Assembly (NCBI GenBank): GCA_009914755.4
Contig: CP068257.2
Coordinates: 6,592,001 to 6,656,000 of the forward strand
Source of the DNA: the human T2T-CHM13v2.0 reference genome, Homo sapiens
Direction: 5' to 3'
Length of the DNA: 64,000 nucleotides
Shown: one piece after another, positions 1 to 59,398 of the stretch
How positions within the stretch are numbered: position 1 is the first letter of the stretch
Layout of the letters: each line of letters begins with the position of its first letter
The notes under the pieces: generated by a model
Seen by the model: the letters and a program-made list of their open reading frames with translations, nothing else
The model's database searches: none
Told to the model about the DNA's origin: nothing
Made by a program: the position numbers and the translations under genes

Positions 1-616
1 AGATACACAAGGAAGCTCTTACCAAAGTCATGGAGAGCAGGCAACATGTGGCAGAAGGGAATACAGAGGTGCAGAGGCTGATGATGTCAGAATCACAGGA
101 ACAGGATTTCTTTGGCTACTTTGGCTGAAATTCACCACTTCCATCCAATTCCAGTGAGAGACATGGACTCACAGATGCAGCATTTCTTGCAACAAGAGAT
201 ACTACTTTTTCAAAAAGTCACTGAGGAATTGATAGTGTTGAATGACTCAATACTCAATCGTGGACTGTTTCCAGTTCAAGGATACTTTCTACAGCAGAAT
301 AATAACACTAGCAAAGAGCTAGTACAAGGATGGTTTTGTGCTCAACTGAAATCCAGCTGAATACAGAATTGTATAGGAAACAGTTAATATGGTGATAGAA
401 TAGAAACAGTAGCAAATGTGAACTAAATCATGCTATGAATGCCTAAACTACTGCTGTAACTTTTGGAAAAATGATAATACCACTTTATTGCTTTTTGAAG
501 AATGAATATCTTAGTGTATATGCTCTAGACCTCAAACCCTATAAAGATTCTCAAAGAAGTTGGCTGGATAAAGCCTACTGTGGATGTCTTTATATTCAAA
601 GATTGATGATGCAATT
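1..616 (+). mobile_element. ERVL-MaLR internal region (3' portion, THE1/MST-int-like), directly upstream of its 3' LTR; paralogous to 28398-29014
   Basis: Continuous with the LTR at 617-965. About 88-90% identical to 28398-29014 by eye alignment. Short decayed ORFs (112..360). Confidence 0.55.
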
Positions 617-965
617 TGAATATGTGTCTCCTCCGAATCTCATGTTGAATTATATTTCCTAATGTGGAAGGTGGATCCTGGCATAACGTAATTGAATTAT
701 GAAGGCAAATTTCTCATGAATGGTTCAGCACCATCCCCTTGTACCGTCCTCACAATAATGAGTGACTTCTCATGAGGTCTGGTCACTGAAAACTCTATGT
801 CACCTCCCTACTCTCCGTGTTTTCCCCTTGCCATGTGAGACAACTAATTCTTTCTTTGCCTTCCATGATTATTGAAAGATATCTGAGGCCTCCTAGAAGC
901 AGAAGCACTGTGCTTAGAACCATGAGACAATTAAACCTATTTTTCAAAATAAATCATACAGAAAA
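617..965 (+). mobile_element. MaLR LTR (THE1/MST-like, ~350 bp)
   Basis: Matches the THE1-type LTR architecture: start ...caaatctcatgttgaattat..., mid ...catgaggtctggtc..., end ...catgagacaattaaacc...acagaaaat. Confidence 0.7.
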
Positions 966-1450
966 TGGCAAATGAGGACTGGAACACTGCTATAAAGATA
1001 CCTGGAAATGTGGAAGCAGCTTTGGAACCCGGTAATGGACGGAGGTTGGAAGAGTTTGGAAGGCTCAAAAGAAGACAGATAGATGAGAAAACTTTTGGAC
1101 CATCTTAGATTCTGGCTCAATTGTTGTGACAAAAATCCTGACAGAAACATGGACAATGAAGACCAGACTGAGGAGGTCTCAGAGAGAAATAAGCTTTCTG
1201 GAAAATGTCTTTATTTTGGATATGGAAAGCTTACACAATGCCTGTACCATCATTGTACCTTAGAAGCAGTGAACTTGCTTTTTTCAGAGACTCATAGGCA
1301 AAAGAGACTGCAGCCTTGACCCAGATGAGATTTGGACTTTGTAACTTTGAGTTAATCCTGAAATGAGTTAAGACTTTGGGAGACTGCTGGCAAGGCATGA
1401 TTGTATTTTGATGTGAGAAGGACATGAGATTCATGGGGTCAGGGACAGAA
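966..1450 (+). mobile_element. MaLR-type internal-sequence fragment (tail of the internal region of the array family)
   Basis: Same sequence as the internal tails at 4809-5152, 8074-8417 and 14573-14882 (...cttacacaatgcctgtaccatcattgtacc...gagaaggacatgagat...cagggacag). Confidence 0.55.
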
Positions 1451-1840
1451 TAATACGGTTTTTCTCTATGTCCCAACCAAAATTCATATGGAATTATATT
1501 TTGTAATGTTAGAGGCGGGGCCTAGGTGGAAAAAGATTTAGTCATAAAATGGTGCAGGTAGATACTTCACGAATGATAAAGGACCATCACCTTGATGCTA
1601 TCCTCCTGATAGTGAGTGACTTCTCATGAGATCTGGTTGTTTAACAGGCTGTGGAACCTCTTTCCTCACTCTGTCTTCCTCCTACTCCTGCTTTAGGAGA
1701 CATCTCATTGTCCCTTGGCTTTCTGATATAACGAGGAGTCTTCCTGATTCCTCCCAGAAACAGAAGACACAATGATTCCTTCACAGCTTGCAGAAACATG
1801 AGTCAATTACATGTCTTTTATTTACAATAATACAGAAAAT
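1451..1840 (+). mobile_element. MaLR LTR (diverged THE1/MST/MLT1-like, complete ~390 bp)
   Basis: aataatacggtttttctctatgtccc...ggcctaggtgg...gatagtgagtgacttctcatgagatctggttg...catgagtcaattac...acagaaaat is colinear with the THE1 LTR consensus. Confidence 0.7.
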
Positions 1841-2084
1841 TAGAACTGCAGAGAGGAGCTGTGAAGTGTCTTCAAGGCCTTTTTCCCTTTGTCTTGGCTA
1901 TTAGCACAGGGCTTCTTTATATGCAAATTTCTGAAATCTTCTTGAATGTTTCCCCTTAAATGGGATTTTTGTTATTGCTACCTAGCCAACCTGCTATACA
2001 GATAGCTAAAAAAGTAGAAGCAGGCTCAATAGTGGGTAGCAAACAAAGATTGGAAGGGCTTGGAGGGATTAGAGTACTAGAGGG

Positions 2085-2793
2085 AGTGGGAGGGAGTGAT
2101 TTAATCATGGATGGGTGGGGGTGTATGTGGAAGGGAAAAAGGGGTGGGTAGGGTGGGAGGGAGTAGACTGGCTGTATGGTGGTGGGAAGGTGGTGGGTAG
2201 TAGGAAGGGGGAGTAGCCTGCTGCAGAGGCAGAGCCTCATGGAAAATGCCTACTGGGGAAGTGCACCTGTGGCTTTGCAGGTCTGAGCCCCCATGGCTGC
2301 TCTCATAGATTGGACTAGTGTTGAGTGCCTGTAGCTTTTCCACACGGAGGGTGCAAGCTGTTGGTGGGTCTATGTATCTGGGGTCTGGAGGGTGGTAGCA
2401 TGGGGGCTCCAAGTCCATATTTTCCTTCTGCACTGCCCTAGTAGAGGTTTCCCAAGAACTCTTCGTCTGCAGGAGGCTACTGCATGGAAACAGTAGGAGG
2501 TGGGTGTGGGAGGCAGATCCTTCACCAATGGTTAGGCAACGTCTTCTTGATGCTGTCCTCATGATAGTGTGTTCTCATGAGATCTGGTTATATAACGGGG
2601 TGGCAACTCTTTCCTCTCGCAGTCTTGCTTCTACTCCTGCCATTTGAAATATCTCATTGCCCCTTGGCCTTCTGGTATGATTGGGAGGCTTCCTGATCTG
2701 ATCCTCCCAGAAGCAGAAGCCACTAAGCTTCCTTTACAGCCTGCTGTATAGTGAGCCAATTAAACCTCTTTTCTTTATGATCATACAGAAAAT
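2085..2793 (+). mobile_element. MaLR LTR (5' truncated) with a ~400 bp insert (G-rich segment plus inverted internal segment 2221-2480)
   Basis: LTR core motifs flank the insert. The insert is the reverse complement of the internal sequence at ~3869-4095. Confidence 0.65.
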
Positions 2794-4506
2794 CAGTGCT
2801 ATGAAGTGGAGCCATGAAATGCCTTCAAGGCCCTTTCCCCTTTGTCTTGGCAACCAGCACTCAGCTTCTTTTCATGCAAATATCTGAAGCCTTCGTGAAT
2901 TTTCCCCCGAAAATGGACTTTTCTGTTTTACCACATTGCCAGGCTCTGATAAAGATAGCTGACAATGTAGAACCAGGTTCAGAAGTGAGTAAAAGACAGA
3001 GGTCAGAAGAATTGGGAAAGCTTAGAAGACAGCAAGATGAGGAAAATATTGGACCACTATAGAGAATTGTTAAATACTTGTGATTAGAAGGCTGACAAAA
3101 GTTTAAACACTGAAGTCCAGACTTAAAAGGTCTCAGATGAAAATGAGGAATTTCCTATTAATAGAAGCCAAGATTACATTTGATTGGCCTTAGCAAAGAA
3201 GCTGGCTGCACGGGGACCCTGCCCTGGAGATCTGTGAAACTAGGAACTTAGGGGTGATGATTTAGGATGTATTTGGTGAAATGAACATCTAGGCAGCATA
3301 ACACAAGAGGTGACCTGTCCGCATTGAACAGCCTGTGTTCTTAAGGGTGACCTAAGAAATGACTTCAAGTTGGAACTTCAAGTGGAGATCTAAAGTTTGG
3401 AAAATTTGGAGCCTGGCCAAGTGGTCAAAAAGAAAAGCCGATTTTGAGGGGGAAATTTCAAGAAGGCTTAGGGTATTTGCATAAAAAGGAACCCAGTGCA
3501 AATAGCCAAGACAGTTTGAAACCGGCCTTGAAGGTATTTTAGAGAAGTCTGCAGCAGCCCTTGCTGTCACAGGCCCCTTGGCCTAGGAGAGAAGAATGGT
3601 TTCCTACGCCAGTCCCATGGCCCTGCTGCTGTGTTCAACCGCAGGACACTGCTGCCTGCATCTGTGCAGCTCCAGCACCAGCCATGGCTGAAAGACATAC
3701 AGGTACAGCTCGGGTCATTGCTTCAGAGGTGGCTCAAAGTCTTGAAGGTTTCCATATAGTGTTAAGCCAGTAGGTGCACAGAGAAAGAGACTAGAGGCTT
3801 GGGAGCTCCCGTCTAGACTCCAGAAGATGTACAGAAAATCCTGGATGTTCAGGAAGAAGCTTTTCCAAGAGGCAGAGCCTTATGGGGAACCTCTACTAGG
3901 GGAGCAAAGAAGGGACATATAAGGTTGAAGCCCCCACACAGGGAGGCATCACTCTCTAAACCCCAGATTCATAGACCCACAAACAGCTTGCACCCCTGGT
4001 GTGGAAAAGCTATGGGCACTCAACAACAGCCCTGTCCATGAGAGACAGCCACTGAGGCTGAACGCTGTAAAACCACAGGGGCAGATCTGCCCAAGGCCTT
4101 GGGAGCTCAGCCCTCACAGCCCTGTGCCATGGATATGGGACAAGGATTCAAAAATGATGATTTTGGAGCTGTAGCATTGAGTGACTGGCCTGCTGGGTTT
4201 TGGACATTTATGTATCCTATGAGTCCCTTCTGGGTTTTGTGCTTCTTTCTAGGAATTATTTTTTTCTGTTGGCTGGGAATGCTTACCCATTGCCTGTACA
4301 ATCCTTGTACCTTGGAAGTAGTAAATTTTCTTTATAATTCAGTGACTTATGGGCATAAGGGACTGTAAACTTGTCTCAGATAAGACTCTGGGCTTTGGGC
4401 CTTTGAGTAAATGCTGGAATGAGTTAAGATTTGAGAGACTCTAGGGAAGGCATCATTGCATTTTGCAATGTGAGAAAGACATGAACTTTGGGGGACCAGG
4501 GACAGA
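2794..4506 (+). mobile_element. MaLR internal region (full ~1.7 kb), unit A
   Basis: Begins right after the LTR end (..acagaaaat|cagtgctatgaagtggagccatgaaatgcc) and ends at the next LTR start (..cagggacag|aataatatgttttggctc). Confidence 0.65.
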
Positions 4507-5152
4507 ATAATATGTTTTGGCTCTCTCTCTCTACCAAAGCTCATGTGGAATATTAATGGGAAATGTTAAAAGTGGGGGCTGGTGGAAGGTGATTTCATCA
4601 TGGTGAAGAGTGGAGGTTGGATGGTTGGGGGGCGGGGAGGGTTGGAGGGATTGGGGGGCGAGGAGGGTTGGAGGGGATTGGGGGTTGGGAGGGTTGGAGG
4701 GGATTGTGGTGGGGTTGGGGATGAAAGGCAGGGGTGGGGGTTGATCCTTCACAAATGGTTAAACACCATCTCCTTAATGCTGTCCTTCTGATAGTGAGTT
4801 CTCTTCATGATTTTGGAGCTGTGAGATTGAATGAACACTGACCTACTGTATTTTGGATGTCCACTGGGCCTGTGGTCCCATTAGTGTTATTTTTCTTGGA
4901 AATTTCTTTCCTTTGGATTGAGAAAGCTTACCCAGTACCTGTACCATCATTGTACCTTGAAAGAAACAAACACCCTTTTAACTTCAGGGAATCATAGGCA
5001 GAAGAAACTGTAGCGTTGTCTCAGATGAGACTTTGAACTTTTTACATTTGAGTTAATGCAGGAAGGAGTTAAGGCTTTTGGAAACTTTTGAAAAGGTATG
5101 AATGTATTTTATTCTGTGAGAAGGATATGAGATTTGGGGGGTCAAGGTCAGC
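4507..5152 (+). mobile_element. Half-LTR (4507-4808, with a G-rich 19-20 bp tandem motif at 4611-4745) fused to an internal tail segment (4809-5152)
   Basis: The LTR breaks at gatagtgagttctc and joins the internal tail gattttggagctgtgagattgaatg...; the same junction is present in every unit. Confidence 0.65.
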
Positions 5153-5935
5153 ATAATATGATTTGGCTGTGTGCCCCTGGAAAAACTCATGTGGAATTGT
5201 AATGCCAAATGTTGGAAGCAGGACCAGGTGGGAGATTATTTAATCATGGATGGGAGGGGTAGGGGTGGAAAAAAATGGGGTGGGTAGGGTGGGGAAGAGT
5301 AGGCTGGCTGTAGGGTGGTGGGAGGGTGGTGGGTAGTAGGAAGGGGGAGTAGACTGCTGCAGAGGCAGAGGCTCATGGAAACCTCTACCAGGGCAGTGTG
5401 CCTGTGGCTTTGCAGGCTTTAGCTCCCATGGCTTCTCTCATGGGCTGGGCTGGTGTTGAGTGCCTATCACTTTTCCATACTGAGGGTGTGAACTGTTGGT
5501 AGGTCTATGAATCTGGGGTCTAGAGGATGGTGGCCTCCTGCATAGTCACTCAAAGCCCTTATTTTCCTTCCGCACTGCCATAGTACAGGATTCCCAAGAG
5601 CCTCTGCCTCTGCAGCAGGCTTCTGTCTGGAACACTAGGAGGTGGAGCTGTGTTGGGGGGCGGATCCTTCACCAATGGTTAAGCACCATCTTCTTGATGC
5701 TGACCTAGTGATAGTGAGTCCTCATGAGATCTGGTTATATAACGGTGTGGCACTTCTTTCCTCTCTCAGCCTTGCTCTTACTCCTGCCGTATGAAACATT
5801 TCATTGCTGTTTTCCTACTGGTATGATTGGGAGGCTTCCTGAGTCCTCCCAGAAGCAGAAGCCACTATGCTTTCTTTACAGCCTGCAGAACCATGAGCCA
5901 ATTAAACCCCTTTTCATTATGATCATACAGAAAAT
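5153..5935 (+). mobile_element. MaLR LTR with insert (inverted internal segment ~5356-5625), unit B
   Basis: ataatatgatttggctgtgtgcccc...catgagccaattaaacc...acagaaaat. Confidence 0.7.
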
Positions 5936-7610
5936 AAAGTACTGTGAAGTGGAGCTATGAAATATCTGCAATGACATTTCCCCATCGTCTTGGCTATTAG
6001 CACTGGACTTCTTTTTAATGCAAATATCTGAAGCCTTTTGAAGTTTCCCCCTGAAAATGGACTTCTTTTTCTTCTACATTGCCAGGCTGCAATAAAGATA
6101 GCTGAAAATGTAAAGCAGGTTCAGAAGTGGGTAACAGCCAGAGGTTGGAGAGTTTGGAGAGCTTGAAAGAAGACAGGAAGATGAAAGAAATTTTGGACCA
6201 TAGTAGGCACTTGTTGAATAGTTGTGATTAAAAGGCTGGCAGAAGGATGGACAGTGAAGGCCAGGCTTACAAGGTCTCAGATGAAAATGAGGAAATTACT
6301 GGGAACAGGAGCCAAGGTTACTTTTGTTTTGCTATAGCAAAGAACATGGCTGCAGGGCGACCTTGCCCTCGAGATCTGTGAAACTTTGAACTTGAGGGTG
6401 ATGATTTAGTACATATCTGGTGGAATGAACTTCTAGGCAGCATAGCACAAGGGGGATCCTGTCTGCATCAAACAGCCTGTGCTGTTGTGTGACCGAGGTT
6501 ATGTGTGACCGAGGAAATGACCTCAAGTTGGAACTTATATTTAAAAATGACAAGCAGAGCTCAAAAGTTTGGAACATTTGCAGCCTGGCCAAGTGGTCAA
6601 AAAGAAAAGCTGATTTTCAGGGGGAAAATTCATGAAGGCTCCAGAAATTTGCATAAAATGGAGGCCAGTGCTAATAGCCAAGACAATGGGGGAAAAAGCC
6701 TTGGAGGCATTTCAGAGATGTTTACAGCAGCATTTACTGTCACAGACCCTGGGGCCTCGGAGAGAATGGTTTCCGGGGCCAGCCCCATGGCCCTGCTGCT
6801 GTGTGCAGCCTCAGGACACTGCTGCCTGCATCCCAGCAGCCCAGCTCCTGCTCCGACCTTGGCTGAAAGATACACAGCTACAGATTGCATCACTGCTTCA
6901 GAGGGTACAAGCTATAAGGCTTCATGGCTTCCACATAGTGTTAAGCCAGCGAGTCCATAGAGCACTAGCCCAGAGGCTTCGGAGCCCTCATATAGATTTT
7001 GGAAGATGTACGAAAATGCTTGGGTGTCCAGACAGAAGGCTGCCAAAAAGCAGAGCCTCTTGGGAAACCTCTACTAGGGCAGTGCAGAAGGAAAATATGG
7101 GGTTGGAGCCCCCACACCGGAGGCCACCATCATGCAGACCCCAGACTCATAGACCCACCAAGAGTTTTGTACCCTCTGTGGGTGAAAACTACAGGCACTC
7201 AACACCAGCACAGCCCATGAGGGCAGCTGTGGGGACTGAAAACTGCAAAGCCACAGGTGCAGACCTGCCCAAGGCCTTGGGAGCCCAGCCCTCATGCCCT
7301 TGTGCCCTGGATGTGGGGCAAGGATTAAAAAAGGATGACTTTGGAGCTGTAGGTTTTAATAACTGGCCTGCTGGGTTTTGGATTTTCATGGGATCTGTAA
7401 GTCCCATTTGTGTTTCATTGCTTCTCTGGCAAAAATCTTCCTTTAGGATGGGAATTCTTACTCAATGCCTGGACAATCATACCTTGGAAGTAGTTAACTT
7501 GCTTTGTATTTCAGAGGCTCAGGAGCAGAACGGACAGCATCTTTGTCTCAGATGAGACTTTGGGCTTCAGACATTTAAGTAAATGCTGGAATGAGTTAAG
7601 ACGTTGGGGG
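5936..7610 (+). mobile_element. MaLR internal region, unit B. Holds the longest ORF in the window (6632..7555, 307 aa, no recognisable domain)
   Basis: Colinear with 2794-4506. The ORF is low-complexity and lies in a repeat. Confidence 0.6.
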
Positions 7611-7738
7611 TTTTAGCCAAGACGATGGGGAAAAGTCATTAAAGGCGTTTCATAGCTTCACTTCACAGTACTAATTTTCTGTATGATCATAACAAAAAGG
7701 GGTTTAATTGGCTCATCGTTCTGCAGGCTGTAAAAAAA
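7611..7738 (-). repeat. Small inverted fragment: reverse complement of the LTR-end/internal-start junction
   Basis: The reverse complement of tttcatagcttcacttcacagtactaattttctgtatgatcataa...ggtttaattggctcatcgttctgcaggctgtaaa matches the junction at ~5890-5990. Confidence 0.55.
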
Positions 7739-7825
7739 AAGCATAGTGGCTTGGGGAATGGTAAGTAAGGCATCACTGTATTTTGCAAAGTGAGAAGGAC
7801 ATGAGATTTGGGGAGGCAGGGACAG

Positions 7826-8417
7826 AAGAATAAGATTCGGCTGTGTGTCCCTATGGAAACTCATGTGGAATTGTAATCAGAAATGTTAAAATTGGGGCCA
7901 GGTGGAAGGTGATTTAATCATGGAGGGCACTGGGTGTTGGAAGGTGGAGATTGGGGAGGATGGGTGGATTATGCTGGGGGTGAGGGGTGAAAAGTGGGGG
8001 TGGGGGGATGATCCCTCACAAGTAGTTAAACACCATCTCCTTAATCCTTTCCTCATGATGGTGAGTTCTCGTGACGGTTTTGGAGCTGTGTGATTGAATG
8101 GATACTGACCTCCTGGGTTTTGGACTTGCGTTGGCCCTGTGATCACATTTGTGTTATTTTCCTGGCAAACTTCTACCCTTTGGATTGAGAAAACTTACCC
8201 AATGCCTGTACCATCATTGTACCTTGAAAGAAAAGAACTCACTTTTAAATTCAGGGACTTATAGGCAAAAGGGACTGTAGCCTTTTCTCAGGTGAGACGT
8301 GGAACTTTTTACATTCGAGTTAATGCTGAAATGACTTAAGACTTTTGGCAACTTTTGAAAAGGCATGATTGTATTTTACTCTGTGAGAAGGATATGATAT
8401 TTGGGGGATCAGGGTCA
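7826..8417 (+). mobile_element. Half-LTR (7826-8073, G-rich motif) plus internal tail (8074-8417)
   Basis: Same junction as at 4808/4809. Confidence 0.6.
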
Positions 8418-9185
8418 GAATAGTATGATTTAGCTGCGTGTCCCTACCTAAACTCACATGTAATTGTAATCCTGAATGTTGCAGGTGGGGCCTGGTGGGA
8501 AGTGACTTATTCATGGATGGGAGAGGGGTGGAGTTGGAAGTAAAAACAGGTGGGTAAGGTGGGGAGACGTAGGCTGGCTGTAGGGTGGTGTGTAGCAGGA
8601 GGGGAGTAGCCTGCCACAGAGGCAGAGGCTCATGGAAAACCTCTACTAAGGCAGTGCACCTGTGGCTTTGCAGGGTTTAGCACCTGCAGCTGCCCTCATG
8701 GGCTGGGCTGCTGTTGAGTGCCTGAAGCTTTTCCATACTGGGGGTGTGAGCTGTTGGTAGGTCCATGACTCTTGGGCTGTAGGATGGTGGCGTGGGGGCT
8801 CCAAGCCCATATTTTCCTTTTGCACTGCCCTAGTAGAGGTTTTCCAGGCGGATCTGTCTCTGTCTCAGGCTTTTGCTTGGAAACAGTGGGTAGTGGATAT
8901 GGGGTGGTGGGCGGATCCTTCACCAACAGTTAAGCACCATCTTGATGCTGACCTTCTGATAGTGAGCTCTCATGAGATCTAGTTGTATAACTGGATATTG
9001 CACTTCTTTCCTCTCTCTGTCTTGCTTCTACTCCTGCCATATGAAACATTTCATTGCTGCTTGGCCTTCTGGTATAATTGGGAGGCTTCCTGAGTCCCCC
9101 TACAAGCAGAAACCACTATGCTTTCTTTACAGCGTGAAGAACTGTGAGTCAATTAGACCTCTTTTCTTTATGTAGATACAGAAAA
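8418..9185 (+). mobile_element. MaLR LTR with insert (inverted internal segment ~8617-8875), unit C
   Basis: LTR motifs; ends ..gtgagtcaattagacc...acagaaaat. Confidence 0.7.
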
Positions 9186-10915
9186 TTAATGCTGTGAAGT
9201 GAAGTTATGAAATGACTTCTAGGTGTTTCCCCCATTCTCTTGGCTATTAGCGCTGAGCTTCTTTCAATGCAAATATTGGAGGCCATCTTGATGTTTCCCC
9301 TGATAATGGACTTTCCTTCTTTTACCACATTACCAGGCTGCAGCAAAGATAGCTGACAGTGTAGACGCAGGTTCCAAATTGGGTAGTGGCCAGAGGTTAG
9401 AGAGTTTGGAGAGCTTGGAAGAAGACAGGAAGATGAGGGAAATTTTGCACCATTGCAGAGACTTATTAAATAGTTGTGAGTAAAAGGCTGACAGAAGGAT
9501 GGACAGTGAAGACCAGCCTTGTAAGGTCTCAGATGAAAATGAGGAACTTACTGGGAAAAGGAGCCAAGGTTTTTTTGTTTTGACTTAGCAAAATAATTGG
9601 CTACACAGTGACCCTTCCCGGGAGATCTGTGAAACTGAACTCGAGGGTGATAATTTAGGGTGTATTTGGTGGAATGAACTTCTAAGCAGCAAAGTTCAAG
9701 AGTTGTACTGCCTACATCGAACAGCCTGTGCTCCTATGTGTGATGAAAGAAATGACCATAAGTTGGAACTTATATTTAAATGAGAAACATAGCTTCAACA
9801 TTTGGAAAATTTGTAATCTGGACAAGTGGTCAAAAAGAAAAGCTGATTTTCAGGGGGAAAATCAAGAAGGTTTAGGATATTTGCATAAAAAGGAGCCCAA
9901 TGCTAATAATTCAAGACAATGGGAAAAAGGCCTTGAAGGCATTTCAGAGACCTTTGTAGCAGTCCTTGCTGTCACTGGCCCTGGGGTTTAGGAGAAAAGA
10001 ATAGTTTCCTGGCTCAGCCCCATGGCTCCACTGCTGAGTGCAGCCTCAGGACACTACTGCCTGCATCCCTGCAGCTCCTTTTACAGCTTCAGCCATGGAT
10101 GAAAGATGTACAGGTACAGCTTGCAACACTGCTTCAGAGGATGCAAGCTCCAAGCCTTGGTGGCTTCTACATAGTGTTAAGCCAGCAGGTGCATAAAGCA
10201 CAGGACTAGAAGCTTCAGAGCCTTCGTCTGGACTCCAGAGAATATATCAGAAAGCCTGAGTGTCTAGCCAGAAGCTTTTCCAAGAGGCAGAGCCTCATGG
10301 TAAACCTCTACTCAGGTAGTAAACAAGGAAAGTATAGGGTTGGAGACCCCATAGAGGGAGGCACCATTTTCCAGACCTCGGTTTCATAGACCCACCAGCT
10401 GCTTGCACCCTTAGTGTTGAAAAGCTACAGGTATTCAACGCCAGCCTAGCCAATGAAGTCAGCTGTAGGGGGAAGAGTCTGCAATGCCACATGTGCAGAG
10501 CTGCCCAAGGCCTTGGGATCCCAGCCATCGCACCACCCTGTGCTCTGGATGTGGACATAGATTCCAAAAAGATGATTTGGAGCTGTATGATGGAATGACT
10601 GGCCTGCTGTGTTTTTGACTTGCAGGTGGTTTTTAAGTCTCATCTGTGTTTTGTGCTTCTTTCTGGCAAGTTTCTTCTTTTTGGCTTGGAATGCTTACCC
10701 AATGCCTGTACAATCATTGTACCTTGGAAGTGGTTAACTTGCTTTGTATTTCAGAGGCTCAGGGCAGAAGGTATGGCAGCCTTGTCTCAGAAGAGACTTT
10801 GGGCTTTAGACATTTGAGTAAACGCTGGGATGAGTTAAGATTTGGGGGACTCTAGGGAAGGCATCATTGCGTTTTGCAATGTGAGAAAGACATGAACTTT
10901 GGGGGACCAGGGACA
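9186..10915 (+). mobile_element. MaLR internal region, unit C
   Basis: Colinear with the other internal copies. Confidence 0.6.
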
Positions 10916-11815
10916 GAATAATATGTTTTGGCTCTGTGTCTCTACCAAAACTCATATGGAATTTTAATGGGAAATGTTAAAGGTGGGGGCTGGTGGAAGG
11001 TGATTTAATCATGATGGAGAGTGGAGGTGGGATGGTTGGGGGGGTGGGGAGGGTGGGGGTGATTAGGGGGTGGGGAGGGTTGGGGTGATTGTGGTGGGGT
11101 TGGGGGTGAAAGGCAGGGGCGGGGGGTGCATCCTTCACAAATGGACATTTGAGTAAATGCTGGAATGAGTTCAGACACTGGGGGACTGTAGAGGATGCAT
11201 CATTGTATTTTGCAGTATGAGAAGGATGTGAGATTGGGGAGCCAAAGGGAGAATAAAATGATTTGGCTCTATGTCCCTACCAAAACTCATGTTGAATTGT
11301 AATGGGGAATGTTAAACGTGGGGCTTGGTAGAAGATGATTTAATCATGGTAGAGAATGGGGGTTGGAAGGGGGATGTAGGAGAACGGAGGTTCATGGTGT
11401 GAGTGAAGGTGAAACATGGTGACGGGTGACAGATCCTTCACAAATGGTTAAATACTATCTCCTTAATGCAGTCTGTGTGATAGTGAGTTCTCATGATAAA
11501 TGAATGCTGTCCTGCTGGGTTTTGGAGTCGGATTGGGCCTGTGTCCCATTTGTGTTATTTTTCTGGGAAAATCTTCCCTTTGGTTTGAGAAAGCTTACCC
11601 AGTGCCTGTGCCATCGTTTTAACTTGAAAGAAAAGAATTGCATTTTACATTCAGGGACTTATAGGCAGAAGGGATTGGTCTTGTTCTGGATGAGACTTGA
11701 ACTTACTACATTTGAGTTACTGCTGGAATGAGTTAAGACTTTTTGAAACTTTTGAAAAGGCATGTTTGTATTTTTCTGTGTGAGAAAGACTTGAGATGTG
11801 GGGGTGTCAGGGTCA
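10916..11815 (+). mobile_element. Half-LTR (10916-11144), then a local duplication of internal tail plus half-LTR (11145-11493), then internal tail (11494-11815)
   Basis: At ~11144 the sequence jumps back to ...gacatttgagtaaatgctggaatgag..., repeating ~10806-11140. Confidence 0.55.
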
Positions 11816-12613
11816 GGATAATATGGTTCGGCTGTGTTTCTCTACAAAAACTCATGGGGAACAGCATTCCTGACTGTTGTAGGTGGGACCTGGTGGGAGG
11901 TGATTTAATCACAAACAGGAGGTTGGTAGGGGTGAAAGGGAAAATAAATGGGTAGGGTGGGGAGGAGTAGGCTGGCAGTAGGGTGGTGAGAGGGTGGTGG
12001 GCAGTAGGAAGGGGGAGTAGCCTGCTGCAGAGGCAGATCCTCATGGAAAACCTCTACCAGGGCTGTGCACCTGTGGTTTGCAGGGTGTAGCCGCCGTGGC
12101 TGCCCTCATAGGCTGGGCTGGTGTTGAGTGCCTGTAGCTTTTCCATACTGAGATTGCAAGCTGTTGGTGGGTCTATGAATCTGGGGTCTGAGGATGGTAA
12201 CCTCATGCGTGGGGCCTCCAAGCCCATCTATTTTTTCTGCTCTGCCCTAGTAGAGGTTTTCCTAGTGGCTCTGCCTCTGCCTCAGGCTTCTGCCTGGAAA
12301 CAGTGAGGGGTGTGGGTGGTAGGGGGCAGATCTTTCACCAATGGTTAAGCAATATCTTGATACTGACCTTGTGATAGTGAGTTCTCAGGAAATCTGGTTG
12401 TATAACAGGGTTATACAACGTGTGGCACCTTTTTCCTCTCTCTGTTTTTTTTTCTACTTCTGCCATATAAAACATCCCATTGCTGCTTGGTCTTCTGGTA
12501 TGATTGGGAGGCTTCCTGAATCTTCCCAGAAGCAGAAGCCTCTATGATTTATTTAGAGCTTGCAGAAACATCAGCCAGTTTAACCTCTTTTCTTTCTGAT
12601 TATACAAAAAAAT
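11816..12613 (+). mobile_element. MaLR LTR with insert (inverted internal segment ~12027-12290), unit D
   Basis: LTR motifs; ends ..atcagccagtttaacc... Confidence 0.65.
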
Positions 12614-14325
12614 AATGCTATAAAGTGGAACTATGAAATGCCTTCAAGACCTTTTTCCTAGTCTCTTGGCAATCAGCACTCAGCTTCTTTTCAGGCAAAT
12701 ATTTGAAGCCTGCATTAATTTTTTCCTGAAATGGACTTTTCTTCTTTTACCACATTGCCAGGCTATGACAAACGTAGCTGAAAATGTAGAAGCAGGTTGA
12801 GAAGTGTGTAATGGCCAGAGGTTGGAGAGTTTGGAGGTCTTGGAAGAAGACAGGAAGATGAGGAAAACTTTGGTCCAGTGTAGAGACTTGTTAAATAGTT
12901 ATAATTAAAAAAGTGACAGAAGGATGGACAGTGATCACCAGGCTTAGAAGGTCTCACATGAAAATGAGGAGCTTGCTGGGAACAGGAACCAAGGTCACTT
13001 TTGTTTTTTCCTTAGCAAAGAACATTGCTGCATGATGCCCCTAATGTGGAGACCTGTGAAAATTTGAACATCAAGGTGATAATTAAGAGTGTATTTGGTG
13101 GAATGAAATTTTAGGCAGCAAAGCTTAAGAGGTGTCCTGTCTGTGTCGAACAGCCTGTGGTCCTATATGTGACCAAATAAATGACCTCAAGGTGAAACTT
13201 ATATTTAAATGAGAAGGAGAGCTTAAAAGTTTGGAAAATTTGCAGACTGGCCTAGTGGTCAAAAAGAAAAGCTGATTATCAGTGGGAAAGTTCAAAAAGG
13301 CTTCAGAAATGTGCATAAAAAGGAATTCAGTGCTAATAGCCAATACAATGTTAAAAAGGCCTTGAAGGCATTTCAGAGACTTTTGCAGCAGCCCTTGCTA
13401 TCACAGGCCCTGAGGCCTGGGATAAAAGAATGGTTTCCTTCTCCAGCCCAATGGCCCCGCTGCTATGTCCATCCTCAGGACACTGCTGACTGCATTCCTG
13501 AAGCTCCAGCTCCAGCCATGGCTGAAAGATGCACAGGTACAGCTTGGGTCACTGCTTCAGAGGGTGCAAGCTGCAAGCCTTGGTGGCTTCCACATAGTGT
13601 TAAGCCAGCAGGTGCACAGAGCACAAAACTAGAGGCTGGGGATCCTTTGTCTGGACTCCAGAGTATGTATGGAAAAACCTGGGTGTCCAGGTCGAAACTT
13701 TTCCAAGAGGCAGAGCCTCCTTTACTAGGTCAGTAGAGAAGGAACATATAAGGTTGGAACCCCATACAGGGAGGCACCATTCTGCCAACTCCAGATTCAT
13801 AGACTCACTAGCAGCTTGCACCCTGATTGTGGAAAAGCTATAGGTACTCAACACCAGCCCAGCCCATGAGGGCAACTGTGGAGGTTAGACCCCGCAAAAG
13901 TCACAGGTGCAGACCTGCCCAAGACCTTGGGAGCCCAGGCCTCATACCCTTGTGCTCTGGATGTGGGATCTGGATTCAAAAAAAATGATTTGGAGGTGTA
14001 GGATTCAATGACTGGCCTGTTGGGTTTTTGACTTGTATGGGGTCTGTAAGTCCCAAATATATTTTGTGCTTCTTTCTGGCAAATTTGTTCCTTTTGGCTG
14101 GGAATACTTATCCAATGCATGTAAAATCATTGTACTTTGGAAGTACTTGCTTGGTATTTCAGAGGCTCAGGGGTAGAACATATGGCAGCCTTGTCTCAGA
14201 AGAGACTTTGGGCTTTGGACACTTCAGTAAATGCTGGAATGAGTTAAGAGATTGGGAAACTGTAGAGAAGGCATCATTGTACTTTGCAGTGTGAGAACAA
14301 CATGAAATATGGGGACCAGGGTCAG
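12614..14325 (+). mobile_element. MaLR internal region, unit D
   Basis: Colinear with the other internal copies. Confidence 0.6.
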
Positions 14326-14882
14326 AATAATATGATTTGGCTCTGCATCCCTAACAAACTCATGTGGAATTGTAATGGGGAATGTTGAAGGTGGGGCCTG
14401 GTGGGAGGTGATTTAATCATTGAGAAGCATGGGGGTTGGAGGTAAGGGTGTGGAGAGAATGGGGGAGATTATTTTGTGGGTGGGAGTGAAAGATGAGGGT
14501 GGGGGTCAGATCCTTCACAAATGGTTAAGCACACTCTCCTTAATGCTGTTCACATGACAGTGAGTTCTCTTGATGATTTTGGAGCTGTGAGATTGAGTGA
14601 ATACTGTCCTGCTGGGTTTTGGACTTGCATTTGTGTTATTTTTCTGGGCAACTTCTTCCCTTTGGATTGAGAAACCTTACCCAATACCTGTTCTACCTTG
14701 AAGGAAAAGAAATCCCTTTTAAATTCAGGGACTCATTGGCAGAAGGGACTGTAACCTTGTCTCAGATGAGATTTTGAAATTTTTACATTCGGAATGAGTT
14801 AAGACTTTTGGAAACTTTTGAAAAGGCATGATTGTGTTTTGCTCTGTGAGAAGGACATGAGGTTCTGGGGAATCAGGGTCAG
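14326..14882 (+). mobile_element. Half-LTR (14326-14572) plus internal tail (14573-14882)
   Basis: Same junction as in units A-C. Confidence 0.6.
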
Positions 14883-15527
14883 AATAATATGAGTTGGCTG
14901 TGTGTCCCTATAAAACTCACGTGTCATCCTTAATGTTGGAGGTGGGCCAGGTGGGAGGTGACTTAATCTTGGATGGGAGGGGGTTGGGGTGGAAGGAAAA
15001 GGAGGGATAGTGTGGGGAGGAGTAGGTTGTCAGTAGGGTGGTGGGAAGGTGAGAGTAACCTGCTGCAGAGGCAGAGGCTCATGGGAAACCTCTACTAGGA
15101 GAGTGCACCTGTGGCTTTGCAGGGTGTAGCCCCCATGGCTGATCTCATGGGCTGGGTTGGTGTTGAGTGCCTGTAGCTTTTCCATACTGAGTGTGTGAGC
15201 TGTTGGTGGGCTTATTAATCTGGAGTCTGGAGGATCGTGGCCTCTTGTGTGGGGGCTCAAAGCCTATATTTTCCTTCTCTGCTGCCATAGTGGAAGTTTC
15301 ATAAGAGGTTCTGCCTCTGCAGGAGGCTTCTGCCTGGAAGCAGTGGACAGTGGTGTGGTTGGAGAATCCTTCACCATTGGTTAGTCTTCTTGATGCTGAT
15401 CTCCTGATAGTGAGTTCTCATGTGATCTGGTTGTCTAACAGGATGTCACACCTCTTTCCCCTCTCTGTCTTGCTCCTACTCCTGCCATATGAAACATCTC
15501 ATTGCCTCTTGGTCTTCTGATATGGTT
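14883..15527 (+). mobile_element. Terminal MaLR LTR with insert (inverted internal segment ~15064-15320), truncated at the 3' end, joined to the minisatellite
   Basis: The LTR stops at ...cttggtcttctgatatgg|ttaggaggggcctgatcagtg; the same junction is found in the paralogue at ~30154. Confidence 0.65.
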
Positions 15528-16310
15528 AGGAGGGGCCTGATCAGTGTGGGCCTGCTCAGTGGACCTAGTCAGTTGCGACTTGTCAGTGAGGCCTATTTAG
15601 TGGGGGGTGGTCAGCAGGGGTCTGCTTAGAGCGGGTCTCATTAGAGGGATCTAGTAGTGCATGTCTTGGTGAGTGGGTTGATAGTGGTAGACAAATGTTT
15701 GGTGTCTGGTCAGTGCCAATCTGGGCTGTGGGACTTGTTCAGTGGAGACCTTGGGACCGAGTCAGCAGAGACGCTTGTCAGTGGGGCCCTGGTCAGGGCA
15801 GGCTGGTCCGTGGAACTTAATCAGTGGGGGCCTGGTCAGAGAGGACTTGATCATTGGTGGCTTTTGTAGCACTGGTCTACGGGGTGACCTGGTCAGCGGG
15901 GATCTGAGCAGTGTGTGCCTGTTCAGTGGGGCGTAGTCATTAGGGTCCCAGTCAGGGGCATCTTGTCACCTCAGTCCTGGTTAGCAGGGGCCTGGTCACT
16001 GGCTGCCTATTCCCTGCAGGCCTGGTCAGTGGGGCTTCGTCTGTGGGACCAGACAATGAGGTCATGATCGGTGGAACCTGATCAGTGAGGCCTTGTCAGT
16101 AAGGACCTCGTCAGTGAGGCCTTGCCAGTGAGGCCTTGCCAGTGAGGCCTTGTCAGTAAGGTCTTCGTCAGTGGAGTCCTGGTCATTGTGGGCCTGGCAG
16201 CGGGAATCTAGTTAGTGAGGCCTGGTGATGGGGCTCTAATCAGTGAGGGTGTGGTCAGGGAGGAAGTGATATGCTGGATCTGGTCACCAGGGACCTGGTC
16301 AGTGGGGGCT
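15528..16310. repeat. Minisatellite, ~15-bp unit (consensus near GGCCTGGTCAGTGRG), ~50 copies
   Basis: Visible periodicity, e.g. gaggccttgccagtg gaggccttgccagtg gaggccttgtcagta. The paralogous array is at 30155-31065. Confidence 0.8.
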
Positions 16311-29014: not shown

Positions 29015-29379
29015 TCGAATATGTATCCCCACCAAATCTCATGTTGAGTTATGCTTCCTAATGTTGGAGGTGGATCCTGGTATAAGGTGACTGAATCATG
29101 AAGGCAAATTTCTCATGAGTGGTTCAGCACCATCCCCTTGGTACTGTCCTCACAATCATGAGTGACTTCTCGTGAGATCTGGCCACTGAAAACTCTATAT
29201 CACTCTGTACTCTCCGTGATTTCCTCTTGCCATGTGAGACAATTCACTCTTTCATTACCTTGCACAATGATTGAAAGATTTCTGAGCCCCCCCAGAAGCA
29301 GAAGCACTAAGCTTCCTGTCCACTCTGCAGAACCATGAGCCAATTAAACCTCTTTTTCAAAATAAATCTTACCAAAAAT
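29015..29379 (+). mobile_element. MaLR LTR (THE1/MST-like), paralogue of 617-965
   Basis: ...gaatatgtatccccaccaaatctcatgttgagttatgc...catgagccaattaaacc... Confidence 0.7.
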
Positions 29380-29872
29380 GGCAAATGAGGACTGGAGCAT
29401 TGCTATAAAGATACCTGAAAATGTGGAAGCAACTTCGGAACTGGGTAATGGGTAGAGGTTGGAAGAGTTTGGAGGGCTCCAAAGAAGACAGACAGATGAG
29501 AACATTTTTGGATCATCTTAGAGACTGGTTAAATGGCTGTGACAAGAATGCTGACAAAAACATGGACAGTGAAGGCCAGGCTGAGGGGGCCTCAGATAAA
29601 AATAAGAAGCTTTCTGGAAAATGTCTCTCTTTTGGATATGGAAAGCTTACACAATGCCTGTACCATCATTGTACCTTAGACGCAGTGAACTTGCTTTTTA
29701 TTTCAGAGACTTGTAGGCAAAAGAGAATGTAGCCTTGACCCAGATGAGACTTTGCGCTTTGTAACTTTGAGTTAATGCTGAAATGAGTTAAGACTTTGGG
29801 AGACTGCTGGCAAGGCATGACTGTATCTTGCAATGTGAGAAGGACATGAGATTTGTGGGGTCAGGGACAGAA
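29380..29872 (+). mobile_element. MaLR-type internal tail fragment, paralogue of 966-1450
   Basis: About 90% identical by eye to 966-1450 (ORF 29421..29732 versus ORF 1083..1319). Confidence 0.55.

Positions 29873-55616: not shown

Positions 55617-59398
<3,782 letters not shown>

What the first reader, a model, noticed from the sequence alone, without database searches (positions are those of the whole stretch)
2085..15527. Tandem higher-order array of ERVL-MaLR proviral units instead of a single LTR-internal-LTR element
MaLR elements normally occur as solo LTRs or single LTR-internal-LTR copies. Here a ~3.3 kb composite unit (full LTR with insert, ~1.7 kb internal, half-LTR with a G-rich motif, ~340 bp internal tail) is repeated about 4 times head-to-tail. 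It is preceded by two ordinary LTR/internal segments and ends in a truncated LTR. Unit-to-unit identity ranges from ~80% (internal body) to ~93% (internal tail plus half-LTR), which implies an old array with local homogenisation (unequal exchange or gene conversion). This is a macrosatellite-like locus built from retroelement parts, and I do not recognise it as a described structure.
Basis: seen in the sequence. Interest (0 to 1): 0.6.

Follow-up and report, generated by a model that had tools for sequence, protein, structure and literature searches.

The report
Known MaLR "LTR array" megasatellite copy
The region is a real, ancient head-to-tail array of about 4.2 scrambled MaLR retroelement units of about 3.3 kb, but it belongs to the "LTR array" megasatellite family already described in the human genome in 2008, so it is a correct observation of a known structure.

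Summary
Window 2086-15533 contains four full units and one partial unit of 3.04-3.42 kb, arranged head to tail. All unit pairs are 78-81% identical. One 241-bp patch, between units U1 and U3, reaches 93.4%. It also carries inverted internal fragments and a foldback inside the long terminal repeat (LTR).

The structure is not new. Warburton et al. 2008 (PMC2588610) described "LTR arrays", a megasatellite of ~3.5 kb MaLR-only monomers (MSTA/THE1 LTR pieces plus MSTA-int in both orientations). They reported 25 arrays in pericentromeric segmental duplications, several of them ~14.7 kb with 4 units. Their two primer sites occur once per unit here, with 0-3 mismatches, in the correct orientation and ~1.5-1.9 kb apart. 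Chance expectation is 0-0.07.

Forty-six contigs from metagenome assemblies (several labelled human skin metagenome, taken here as human contamination) carry copies that match individual window monomers at 86-98.5%. Monomer types therefore predate the dispersal of the family.

One added detail is new here. Window 28377-31395 is a paralogue of the array's two flanks joined through a single hybrid LTR. It is most likely a copy whose array was deleted by LTR-LTR recombination.

I found no evidence of function. Novelty: already known. Interest: low.

The parts
604..960 (+). MaLR LTR at the left end of the conserved block that carries the array
   Evidence: Read directly: it begins TGATGATGC... and ends ...AAATCATACAG. 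It is only 65% identical to the LTR at 1457-1845. It is conserved in paralogue P.
987..1431 (+). Internally deleted MaLR internal region (about int 24-221 joined to int 1356-1556)
   Evidence: The same deletion is present at 29388-29866.
1457..1845 (+). Uninterrupted LTR at the left boundary. It has no G-rich insert and no foldback
   Evidence: Sequence and alignment. Its first ~270 bp are paralogous to the left part of the P LTR.
1846..2066 (+). Truncated proto-unit: an inverted internal fragment (rc int ~487-581) followed by the start of the internal region
   Evidence: Region 1556-2066 aligns to the LTR 3' part plus the following 220 bp of every unit at 70-76%, which is lower than the unit-to-unit identity.
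2086..5226 (+). Unit U1 (3141 bp)
   Evidence: Primer 2B site at 2209 (0 mismatches) and primer 2A site at 3690 (3 mismatches). Internal region 2955-4501.
5227..8497 (+). Unit U2 (3271 bp). It carries a U2-specific inverted insert at 7608-7750
   Evidence: Primer sites at 5345 and 6865. Internal region 6086-7610.
8498..11892 (+). Unit U3 (3395 bp). It carries an extra copy of internal tail plus LTR 5' part at 11142-11440
   Evidence: Primer sites at 8602 and 10101. Internal region 9337-10912.
11893..14950 (+). Unit U4 (3058 bp)
   Evidence: Primer sites at 12013 and 13524, both with 0 mismatches. Internal region 12762-14313.
14951..15533 (+). Partial unit U5: G-rich segment, foldback and LTR 3' part, truncated at ...GGTTAGGAGG|GGCCTGATCAGTG
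   Evidence: Primer 2B site at 15051. The same truncation point is seen in P and in contig L003.
5250..5345 (+). G-rich segment inside the full LTR (example from U2). The equivalent segments in the half-LTRs form a 26-bp minisatellite
   Evidence: Tandem Repeats Finder rows 4625-4706, 11026-11105 and 11952-12008. Seven G-quadruplex motifs lie on the + strand of the array, against ~1 expected.
5348..5631 (+). Foldback inserted in the full LTR (example from U2): int ~918-963 forward, then int ~1172-904 reversed
   Evidence: Inverted arms of 23-57 nt with 162-224 nt between them are present in all five units. The DNA fold has a z-score of -4.6.
5973..6092 (-). Inverted internal fragment (int ~460-585) immediately after the LTR, replacing the first ~22 nt of the internal region (example from U2)
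   Evidence: One search shows it in every unit and at 1880-1969. Its inverted partner is 6601-6694.
7815..8075 (+). Half-LTR (LTR ~1-105, G-rich segment, LTR ~110-170) joined directly to internal tail int ~1250 (example from U2)
   Evidence: The junction ...GATAGTGAGTTCTC-TGATGATTTTGGAGCTGTG... lies at the same position in U1, U2 and U4. U3 has it with a 20-bp deletion.
4402..4642 (+). Patch at 93.4% identity with U3 10813-11054, taken as an old conversion or exchange tract
   Evidence: The corresponding patches in contigs taken as human are 91-96% identical to both window patches.
15534..16310 (+). Degenerate 14/29-bp minisatellite (TCAGTGAGGCCTTG) forming the right flank of the array
   Evidence: It is paralogous to 30150-30990 in P.
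28377..31395 (+). Paralogue P: the left block and the right flank of the array joined through one hybrid LTR (about 29870-30150), with no array
   Evidence: 3-1723 matches 28377-30145 and 15401-16645 matches 30025-31395.

Best explanation
Window 2086-15533, together with its conserved left block 604-2066, is one copy of the primate 'LTR array' megasatellite of Warburton et al. 2008. It is a decayed tandem array whose ~3.3 kb monomer is made only of rearranged MaLR (MSTA/THE1-type) LTR and internal sequence.

The most likely history has seven steps.

(1) Two related MaLR LTR-internal modules came to lie in tandem. The second internal region was then deleted from LTR position ~170 to internal position ~1250. 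This left the 'half-LTR plus internal tail'.

(2) Strand-switch (foldback) rearrangements placed an inverted internal fragment just after the LTR, and a hairpin-like internal fragment inside the LTR. The hairpin sits next to a G-rich tract that expanded into a minisatellite.

(3) The finished composite was amplified head to tail, presumably by unequal exchange between its own direct repeats. This gave several monomers.

(4) Amplification and homogenisation then stopped at this locus. The monomers drifted apart to ~20% divergence, apart from one ~240-bp conversion tract between U1 and U3.

(5) The whole block (left element, array, minisatellite flank) was copied to many loci by segmental duplication.

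(6) Individual copies later gained or lost monomers.

(7) The paralogue at 28377-31395 lost its whole array by recombination between the left boundary LTR and the terminal LTR.

Nothing found here indicates a sequence-specific function. The array is best read as neutral repeat DNA that matters mainly as a substrate for rearrangement.

What is shown: the anatomy, the single origin of the units, family membership, the order of events and the multi-locus distribution. What is inferred: the molecular mechanisms (unequal exchange, foldback by template switching) and the absolute dates.
For: Family membership. Warburton et al. describe ~3.5 kb MaLR-only monomers with LTR and MSTA-int fragments in both orientations. 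They list 25 arrays in pericentromeric duplications, including 14.4-14.8 kb arrays of 4 units. Their primer 2B matches the + strand at 2209, 5345, 8602, 12013 and 15051 with 0-2 mismatches. Primer 2A matches at 3690, 6865, 10101 and 13524 with 0-3 mismatches. Chance expectation is 0.00 and 0.07 respectively. The sites alternate ~1.5-1.9 kb apart, close to the 'two ~1.7 kb fragments' of their methods.

Single origin of the units. All units share the same non-canonical junctions: the half-LTR to internal-tail junction, the foldback and the inverted fragment after the LTR.

The inner duplication is older than the amplification. The two kinds of internal tail form separate clades, each with 100% bootstrap support.

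Order of events. Monomer K2P distances are 0.22-0.26, against 0.12-0.15 for the array flanks versus paralogue P. Metagenome contigs taken as human match window monomers type by type at 86-98.5%.

Both junctions of the block are shared with contigs taken as human. L010, L020 and L001 cover the left junction. L004, L043, L034 and L003 cover the right junction.

Collapse of P. The LTR in P resembles the left boundary LTR in its first part and the terminal LTR after about 30040-30080. It has the same truncation point as the terminal LTR. The right flank of P groups with L003, a copy that still carries the array-type terminal LTR (K2P 0.110, 100% bootstrap), and not with the flank of the window's own array (0.154).

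No sign of coding. ORFs of at least 110 aa occur only in U1 (minus strand), U2 and U4, and none recurs at the equivalent place in all units. The four tested have no Pfam match.
Against: RepeatMasker and Dfam could not be run.

The memory MSTA LTR consensus did not hit the array at all, and the memory THE1B LTR hit only weakly.

No related contig is 99% or more identical across a whole monomer. The best figures are 99.2% over 1050 bp of the right flank (L004) and 98.5% over 480 bp. The exact locus and species are therefore not pinned down.

The contigs are low-coverage metagenome assemblies of multi-copy DNA and may be chimeric. This weakens conclusions drawn from single contigs such as L003, L018 and L046.

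The collapse of P depends on parsimony and a rough molecular clock. Import of an array into a P-like locus by LTR homology is not excluded.

Absence of function is an argument from silence.
Confidence: 0.9

Rival explanations
1. This is an undescribed, locus-specific macrosatellite that is still being homogenised and is probably copy-number variable.
For: The tandem 3.3 kb period is real. One 241-bp patch reaches 93.4% identity. Related copies in contigs taken as human show different monomer adjacency (L046) and an inversion (L018). Warburton et al. report presence/absence variation of arrays on acrocentric chromosomes.
Against: The family was published in 2008, and its primers match every unit. 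All unit pairs are equally ~20% diverged, with no gradient by adjacency. The single high-identity patch is shared with copies in contigs taken as human, so it is old. Warburton et al. saw no variation in the presence of arrays on non-acrocentric chromosomes.
Confidence: 0.05
2. The pattern comes from independent or nested insertions of several MaLR elements into one spot, not from duplication of a composite unit.
For: MaLR elements are very abundant. The inter-unit identity of ~80% is similar to that between unrelated old MaLR copies. The two LTRs upstream differ strongly, at 65% identity.
Against: Every unit has the same illegitimate junctions at the same nucleotide positions. It also has the same order and orientation of seven segments. 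The two tail types each form 100%-supported clades across units. Independent insertions cannot reproduce this.
Confidence: 0.01
3. The paralogue at 28377-31395 is the ancestral, pre-array state. The array entered the left copy later by recombination with an array elsewhere.
For: P has a continuous LTR between the same flanks. LTR homology could mediate such an import. The family sits in duplication-rich DNA.
Against: Monomer divergence (K2P 0.22-0.26) exceeds the divergence between the flanks and P (0.12-0.15). The same left and right junctions occur in other array-bearing copies. The right flank of P is sister to an array-bearing copy, L003, with 100% bootstrap support. The array-bearing state is therefore the more parsimonious ancestor.
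Confidence: 0.2
4. The array is functional. One possibility is that read-through transcripts fold on the ~95-235 nt inverted internal segments and the LTR foldback, giving double-stranded RNA and small RNAs against MSTA/THE1 elements. Another is that the G-rich LTR tracts act as G-quadruplex or recombination elements.
For: Each unit contains two long-range inverted pairs, for example 5401-5607 with 7050-7257 and 5977-6070 with 6601-6694. Each also contains a foldback, conserved in all five units, with a fold z-score of -4.6. G-quadruplex motifs number 7 against ~1 expected. Matches to the 13-mer CCNCCNTNNCCNC, which I recall from memory as the human PRDM9 hotspot motif, number 4 against 0.9 expected.
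Against: The arms are only 77-88% complementary and have decayed like the rest of the unit. There are no expression or small-RNA data. No segment is conserved above the background apart from the one conversion patch. The 13-mer excess is within the range of simulations, which reached 5. The DUX4 site typical of MaLR LTR promoters is absent from the array.
Confidence: 0.05
5. The array is an assembly artefact: a collapsed or expanded repeat.
For: Pericentromeric duplications are prone to misassembly.
Against: The units differ by ~20% and each has private indels, such as the 7608-7750 insert and the extra copy at 11142-11440. They cannot be assembler-made copies. Independent contigs taken as human reproduce the U1-U2, U2-U3 and U3-U4 adjacencies (L007, L027).
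Confidence: 0.01

Closest known systems
'LTR arrays', the MaLR megasatellite family of Warburton et al. 2008 (BMC Genomics 9:533, PMC2588610)
   Same: Monomers of ~3.5 kb made entirely of MaLR LTR and internal fragments in both orientations, arranged in head-to-tail arrays. The published list includes arrays of 4 units and 14.4-14.8 kb. The arrays are embedded in interrelated segmental duplications. The published primer pair occurs once per unit here.
   Different: The window shows no six-monomer higher-order repeat and no LTR6A insertion. Those features mark the large 13q11, 18p11 and 21q11 arrays. The window holds only 4.2 monomers, each of a different type. The paper does not describe the foldback anatomy, the left boundary proto-unit or a collapsed copy such as 28377-31395.
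Alpha-satellite higher-order repeats (established knowledge)
   Same: Diverged monomer types (~20% apart) whose identities are conserved between arrays at different loci. Unequal exchange changes monomer number.
   Different: The monomer is 3.3 kb of retroelement debris, not 171 bp. There is no repetition of a multi-monomer block within this window. There is no centromere role.
Solo-LTR formation and tandem LTR-internal-LTR-internal-LTR arrays made by LTR-LTR recombination (established knowledge of LTR retroelements)
   Same: Direct LTR repeats act as substrates for both expansion and deletion. Paralogue P has a hybrid LTR exactly where the array sits in the other copy.
   Different: The repeating unit is not a clean LTR plus internal module of ~2 kb. 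It is a rearranged dimer with inverted inserts. The deletion removed a 13.7 kb array rather than one internal region.
G-rich minisatellites born inside MaLR LTRs (mouse Ms6-hm and Hm-2, listed in the table of PMC9659126)
   Same: A G-rich tract within a MaLR LTR expanded into a minisatellite.
   Different: The species and LTR subfamily differ. Here the minisatellite is a sub-feature of a much larger repeat unit and has only ~2-3 copies.
'Composite elements' of the T2T-CHM13 repeat annotation (Hoyt et al., bioRxiv 10.1101/2021.07.12.451456)
   Same: The definition fits: a repeating unit of three or more repeat-derived pieces, found as a tandem array.
   Different: The main text as held has no occurrence of the words MaLR, THE1 or MST. 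Whether this family is among the 19 listed composites could not be checked.
Classical macrosatellites such as D4Z4 and DXZ4 (established knowledge; DXZ4 is also mentioned)
   Same: Unit size of about 3 kb in tandem arrangement.
   Different: Those arrays have highly similar units, large copy-number polymorphism and, for D4Z4, a gene in each unit. Here the units are ~80% identical and carry no conserved ORF.

Membership tests
Warburton 'LTR array' MaLR megasatellite | Head-to-tail tandem array with a monomer of about 3.5 kb | tested here: met
   Units measure 3141, 3271, 3395 and 3058 bp, plus a 583-bp partial unit. Primer-site spacing is 3038-3423 bp.
Warburton 'LTR array' MaLR megasatellite | Monomer made only of MaLR LTR fragments and MSTA-type internal sequence, present in both orientations | tested here: met
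LTR halves were read directly. Inverted pairs are confirmed independently of any reference. Caveat: there was no RepeatMasker run, so the MSTA versus THE1 labels were not verified.
Warburton 'LTR array' MaLR megasatellite | Published conserved primer sites (2B GGGAGTAGCCTGCTGCAGAGG and 2A GAAAGATGCACAGGTACAG) present once per monomer, on the same strand, splitting the unit into two fragments of about 1.7 kb | tested here: met
   There are 5 + strand sites for 2B with 0-2 mismatches, and 4 + strand sites for 2A with 0-3 mismatches. Chance expectation is 0.00 and 0.07. The sites are 1.48-1.91 kb apart.
Warburton 'LTR array' MaLR megasatellite | Many copies elsewhere in the genome, embedded in related pericentromeric segmental duplications | tested here: inconclusive
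   Forty-six contigs from metagenome assemblies carry related monomers and the same left and right junctions, at 82-99% identity. Several are labelled human skin metagenome, and they are taken here as human contamination. The window also holds a second copy of the flanks and a mir-3118 hairpin, a family reported to have expanded by segmental duplication. Chromosomal position could not be determined with these tools.
Large-array subtype of the LTR arrays (13q11, 18p11, 21q11) | Higher-order repeat of six monomers, one of them carrying a full-length LTR6A | tested here: not met
   Only 4.2 monomers are present and all are mutually ~80% identical, so no monomer type recurs. No unit carries a foreign insertion of LTR size: unit lengths are 3.06-3.40 kb. 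The window therefore matches the small-array class (4 units, 14.4-14.8 kb) of Table 3.
Canonical single MaLR provirus (LTR-internal-LTR) | Two LTRs that were identical at insertion, so similarly diverged now, bounding one internal region and flanked by a target-site duplication | tested here: not met
   LTR 604-960 versus LTR 1457-1845 shows 65% identity, K2P 0.49. The terminal LTR is truncated at 15533, so no target-site duplication can be sought. Four internal regions lie between the outer LTRs.
Classical polymorphic macrosatellite (D4Z4/DXZ4 type) | Near-identical units maintained by ongoing homogenisation | tested here: not met
   All pairs are 78-81% identical. Only one 241-bp patch reaches 93.4%.

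The most novel reading that the evidence does not exclude
Each monomer keeps a conserved foldback in its LTR and two long inverted pairs of MaLR internal sequence. Read-through transcripts of the dispersed LTR arrays could therefore fold into long imperfect double-stranded RNA and serve as a genomic source of small RNAs directed against MSTA/THE1 elements in the germline or early embryo. On that reading the family would be a retained 'trap' rather than junk. A lesser novel point is better supported by the evidence: a whole megasatellite array can be excised by LTR-LTR recombination, leaving a hybrid solo-type LTR (28377-31395).
Probability: 0.05. Interest if true: 0.55.

Novelty: already known. 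Interest (0 to 1): 0.15.

Why it matters
The finding shows that the first-stage reader can recover a complex repeat architecture by eye, but the architecture itself is a published human megasatellite family. The residual value is descriptive.

- It gives a nucleotide-level anatomy of the monomer: the foldback inside the LTR, the inverted internal fragment replacing the start of the internal region, and the half-LTR to tail junction.
- It gives a relative order of events: inner duplication, then amplification, then dispersal.
- It gives an example of a collapsed array copy.

These arrays are long direct and inverted repeats inside pericentromeric duplications. They are therefore plausible substrates for non-allelic recombination, and they are a nuisance for read mapping. 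Neither point is new.

Tried and rejected
(1) Exact-protein look-ups of four window ORFs (6632-7555, 50740-51339, 55617-56330, 16514-16999) in public assemblies, to find the locus or species. None was on record.

(2) An exact scan of bacterial and archaeal genome contigs for primer 2B gave 0 hits.

(3) A memory-typed MSTA LTR consensus gave no hit in the array, only one at 32845-32931. Memory THE1B LTR gave short, weak hits only. Subfamily labels therefore could not be verified.

(4) The DUX4 binding motif TAAYBBAATCA, known from MaLR LTR promoters, is absent from the array. Its single window hit lies in the mir-3118 hairpin. The link was dropped.

(5) A Pfam scan of four array ORFs found nothing.

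(6) The 13-mer CCNCCNTNNCCNC, which I recall from memory as the human PRDM9 hotspot motif, occurs 4 times against 0.9 expected. Simulations reach 5, so I did not treat this as meaningful.

(7) I looked for a two-monomer periodicity (U1 like U3, U2 like U4) that would indicate a higher-order block. Pairwise identities show none.

(8) The OwlRep/HSAT6-MSTA paper (PMC5765563) concerns a different repeat and is not relevant. Two other MSTA-int papers are likewise irrelevant to arrays.

(9) The T2T repeat paper's main text has no occurrence of MaLR, THE1 or MST.

Full report
1. WHAT THE WINDOW IS

The window is primate DNA. Alu copies fill 35.6-64 kb, and L1 3' ends are present.

2. CHECKING THE OBSERVATION

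Self-comparison of 1-20000 shows long direct diagonals confined to 2086-15533. The offsets are ~3.1-3.4, 6.4-6.7 and 9.8 kb, and the alignments run 2.4-3.8 kb at 75-79% identity.

A multiple alignment fixes the units:
- U1 2086-5226
- U2 5227-8497
- U3 8498-11892
- U4 11893-14950
- partial U5 14951-15533

Every pair of units is 78-81% identical, whether adjacent or not (K2P 0.22-0.26). A scan for locally elevated identity finds one significant tract. U1 4402-4642 versus U3 10813-11054 is 93.4% identical over 241 sites. The best 200-bp windows of the other pairs reach only 87.5-89.5%.

3. ANATOMY OF THE UNIT

It is a lead, not a database result.

Four colinear internal regions of ~1.55 kb appear, at 2955-4501, 6086-7610, 9337-10912 and 12762-14313. 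Together with direct reading, each unit has this order:

1. LTR positions ~1-105.
2. A G-rich tract. Seven G-quadruplex motifs lie on the + strand of the array against ~1 expected.
3. A foldback made of internal positions ~918-963 forward, followed by ~1172-904 reversed.
4. LTR positions ~110 to the end.
5. A reversed internal fragment (~460-585) that replaces the first ~22 nt of the internal region.
6. Internal region ~23-1571.
7. A second, half LTR: positions ~1-105, a G-rich 26-bp minisatellite, then ~110-170.
8. A direct join to internal tail ~1250-1571.
9. The next unit's LTR.

The foldback arms (23-57 nt, 77-88% complementary, 162-224 nt apart) are present in all five units. The segment folds much better than shuffles, with z = -4.6. 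The long-range inverted pairs are confirmed without any reference, for example 5401-5607 with 7050-7257 and 5977-6070 with 6601-6694. The half-LTR to tail junction is at the same nucleotide in U1, U2 and U4, and in U3 with a 20-bp deletion.

These shared illegitimate junctions exclude independent insertions. They show that a single composite was duplicated.

The two tail types (before the half-LTR and before the full LTR) form separate clades with 100% bootstrap support. The inner duplication therefore predates the amplification.

Private changes exist in two units. U2 has an inverted insert at 7608-7750. U3 has an extra copy of tail plus LTR 5' part at 11142-11440.

ORFs of 110 aa or more occur only in U1 (minus strand), U2 and U4, and none recurs at the equivalent place in all units. 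The four tested have no Pfam match.

4. IT IS A KNOWN FAMILY

A full-text search found Warburton et al. 2008, 'Analysis of the largest tandemly repeated DNA families in the human genome' (PMC2588610). They describe 'LTR arrays'. This is a megasatellite consisting entirely of MaLR retrotransposons. Its ~3.5 kb monomers contain fragments of MSTA and THE1 LTRs and MSTA-int in both orientations. They report 25 arrays on 9 chromosomes, plus more seen by FISH, embedded in interrelated segmental duplications. Table 3 lists three 1q12 arrays of 14.4-14.7 kb with 4 units and a 4p11 array of 14.8 kb with 4 units.

Their methods give primers designed on conserved parts of the monomer. I used these as a direct membership test.

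- Primer 2B (GGGAGTAGCCTGCTGCAGAGG) matches the + strand at 2209, 5345, 8602, 12013 and 15051 with 0, 1, 2, 0 and 2 mismatches. No matches are expected by chance. Two further 3-mismatch hits on the - strand are the opposite foldback arms.
- Primer 2A (GAAAGATGCACAGGTACAG) matches at 3690, 6865, 10101 and 13524 with 3, 2, 1 and 0 mismatches. Chance expectation is 0.07.

The sites alternate 1.48-1.91 kb apart, which fits the published 'two ~1.7 kb fragments'. Primer 2B sits on the junction between the G-rich tract and the foldback. That junction is specific to this family.

The window's array is therefore a member of the family. From the upstream LTR at 604 to 15533 the block spans ~14.9 kb, close to the small-array class. 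The six-monomer higher-order repeat with LTR6A that marks the large arrays on chromosomes 13, 18 and 21 is absent here.

5. RELATED COPIES ELSEWHERE

An exact scan for primer 2B in metagenome contigs returned 46 contigs. Several are labelled human skin metagenome, and I take them as human contamination.

They align to the window monomer by monomer at 82-97% over kilobases. In a 480-bp tree each window monomer has its own partners among these contigs:
- U1 96-97%
- U2 97.5-98.5%
- U4 ~96%
- U5 95.6%
- U3 87-88%. The U3 primer site has two mismatches in the window, so its true counterparts were probably not sampled.

Some contigs are only 81-87% identical to their best-matching window monomer (L012, L035, L016, L018). 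This suggests further monomer types. Monomer types thus predate dispersal.

Long contigs reproduce the window's U1-U2, U2-U3 and U3-U4 adjacencies (L007, L027). Others show a different junction (L046) or an inversion (L018). Contigs also span the left junction (L010, L020, L001) and the right junction (L004, L043, L034, L003). The whole block was therefore copied as a unit.

The U1/U3 high-identity patch is 91-96% identical to the corresponding patches in these contigs, so the event is old.

The best match is L004, at 99.2% over 1050 bp of the right flank. No contig is 99% or more identical through a monomer. The window is human or a close relative, or a paralogue that was not sampled. Its exact locus is undetermined. 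These contigs are low-coverage assemblies of multi-copy DNA and may be chimeric.

6. A COLLAPSED COPY IN THE SAME WINDOW

Whole-window self-comparison shows two matches:
- 3-1723 matches 28377-30145.
- 15401-16645 matches 30025-31395.

In K2P terms these are 0.12-0.15 apart.

This paralogue, P, has one LTR (~29870-30150). The other copy has, in the same place, the boundary LTR (1457-1845), 13.7 kb of array, and the truncated terminal LTR.

The LTR in P resembles the boundary LTR in its first part and the terminal LTR from about 30040-30080. It shares the exact truncation point...GGTTAGGAGG|GGCCTGATCAGTG..., with the terminal LTR and with contig L003.

Monomer divergence exceeds the divergence between the flanks and P. 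In a tree of right flanks, P groups with L003, which still carries the array-type terminal LTR (K2P 0.110, 100% bootstrap). It does not group with the window's own array flank (0.154).

The parsimonious reading is that P descends from an array-bearing copy and lost the array by recombination between the two outer LTRs. This is the array-scale equivalent of solo-LTR formation. The alternative, that P is ancestral and the array was imported, keeps perhaps 20%.

7. HISTORY AND MECHANISM

The relative order follows from distances:
- Tail type 1 versus tail type 2: ~70-75% identity.
- Monomers versus each other: ~80%.
- Array flanks versus P: ~86-89%.
- Most paralogues in the contigs: 87-99%.

At an assumed 2.2e-9 substitutions per site per year, the monomer split would be roughly 50 million years old and the split from P roughly 30 million years old. 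These dates are an inference with wide error.

The boundary proto-unit (1556-2066) has the inverted fragment after the LTR, but no G-rich tract and no foldback in its LTR. It is only 70-76% identical to the units. It looks like an older, edge copy.

The proposed mechanisms are unequal exchange for amplification and loss, and template switching for the inverted pieces. The G-rich tracts may favour fork stalling. All of these are inferred from structure and were not demonstrated.

8. FUNCTION

I found no evidence of function:
- No ORF is conserved across all units.
- No DUX4 site lies in the array.
- No segment is conserved above background except the conversion patch.
- The excess of the 13-mer CCNCCNTNNCCNC, recalled from memory as the PRDM9 hotspot motif, is not significant.

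The inverted segments could in principle give double-stranded RNA. That remains speculation.

9. VERDICT

The structural interpretation is largely right. The claim of novelty is wrong, because this is a copy of the MaLR 'LTR array' megasatellite published in 2008. Interest is low. The small additions made here are the nucleotide-level monomer anatomy, the order of events, and the collapsed paralogue at 28377-31395.

Noticed in passing
window 28377-31395: A paralogue of both flanks of the array, joined through one hybrid, truncated LTR with no monomers. Its right flank is sister to an array-bearing contig taken as human (L003). It looks like an array deleted by LTR-LTR recombination.
   Followed up: yes
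window 21262-21336 (- strand): An Rfam mir-3118 precursor hit at 90.7 bits, against a gathering score of 89. It lies 5.7 kb from the array. The arm reads TGTGACTACATTATGAAAATTCT, which differs by one base from the human mature sequence as I remember it. The family is reported to have expanded by segmental duplication (PMC3059204).
   Followed up: partly
window 15534-16310 and 30150-30990: A degenerate 14/29-bp minisatellite (TCAGTGAGGCCTTG) directly abuts the truncated LTR in both the array copy and the collapsed copy. It is probably responsible for the loss of the LTR 3' end.
   Followed up: partly
window 31404-32775: A 48-bp minisatellite with 28.6 copies at 79% match, giving long repetitive ORFs on both strands. 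It starts where the homology between the two flank copies ends.
   Followed up: no
window 25247-27844: A tandem repeat with a unit of about 730-810 bp, 3-4 copies, 78-86% identical. It lies in a GC-rich stretch between the two flank copies.
   Followed up: no
window 16519-16790 and 17216-17487: An inverted repeat of 272 bp at 86% identity, just beyond the right flank of the array. Contig L036 joins these regions differently.
   Followed up: no
window 7608-7750: A U2-specific insert that is the reverse complement of the LTR end plus the following sequence (5871-5996), about 88-94% complementary. Contig L007 aligns continuously across it.
   Followed up: partly
window 11142-11440: A U3-specific extra copy of the internal tail end, LTR 5' part and G-rich tract. 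Contigs L007 and L004 appear to have one copy where the window has two.
   Followed up: partly
loci L046 (1-4583) and L018 (1-5251): Contigs of the same family, taken as human, with a different monomer junction (window 4225 joined to a 10697-like position) and with an inverted segment. These point to structural differences between paralogous arrays, or to assembly chimeras.
   Followed up: partly
window 2133-2161, 4627-4693, 5277-5333, 11029-11085: G-quadruplex motifs cluster in the G-rich LTR tracts, with 7 on the + strand against ~1 expected. The reverse complement of the 13-mer CCNCCNTNNCCNC (recalled from memory as the PRDM9 hotspot motif) occurs at 2144, 5280, 8550 and 11044, a weak excess.
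   Followed up: partly
window 62325-63479 and 47869-48272: Two further minisatellites: 35 bp with 33 copies, and 57 bp with 7 copies.
   Followed up: no
window 54894-59636: A long L1 element on the + strand with broken ORF1 and ORF2 pieces of 145-237 aa. Its 3' end is 90.6% identical to a remembered young-L1 3' end.
   Followed up: no
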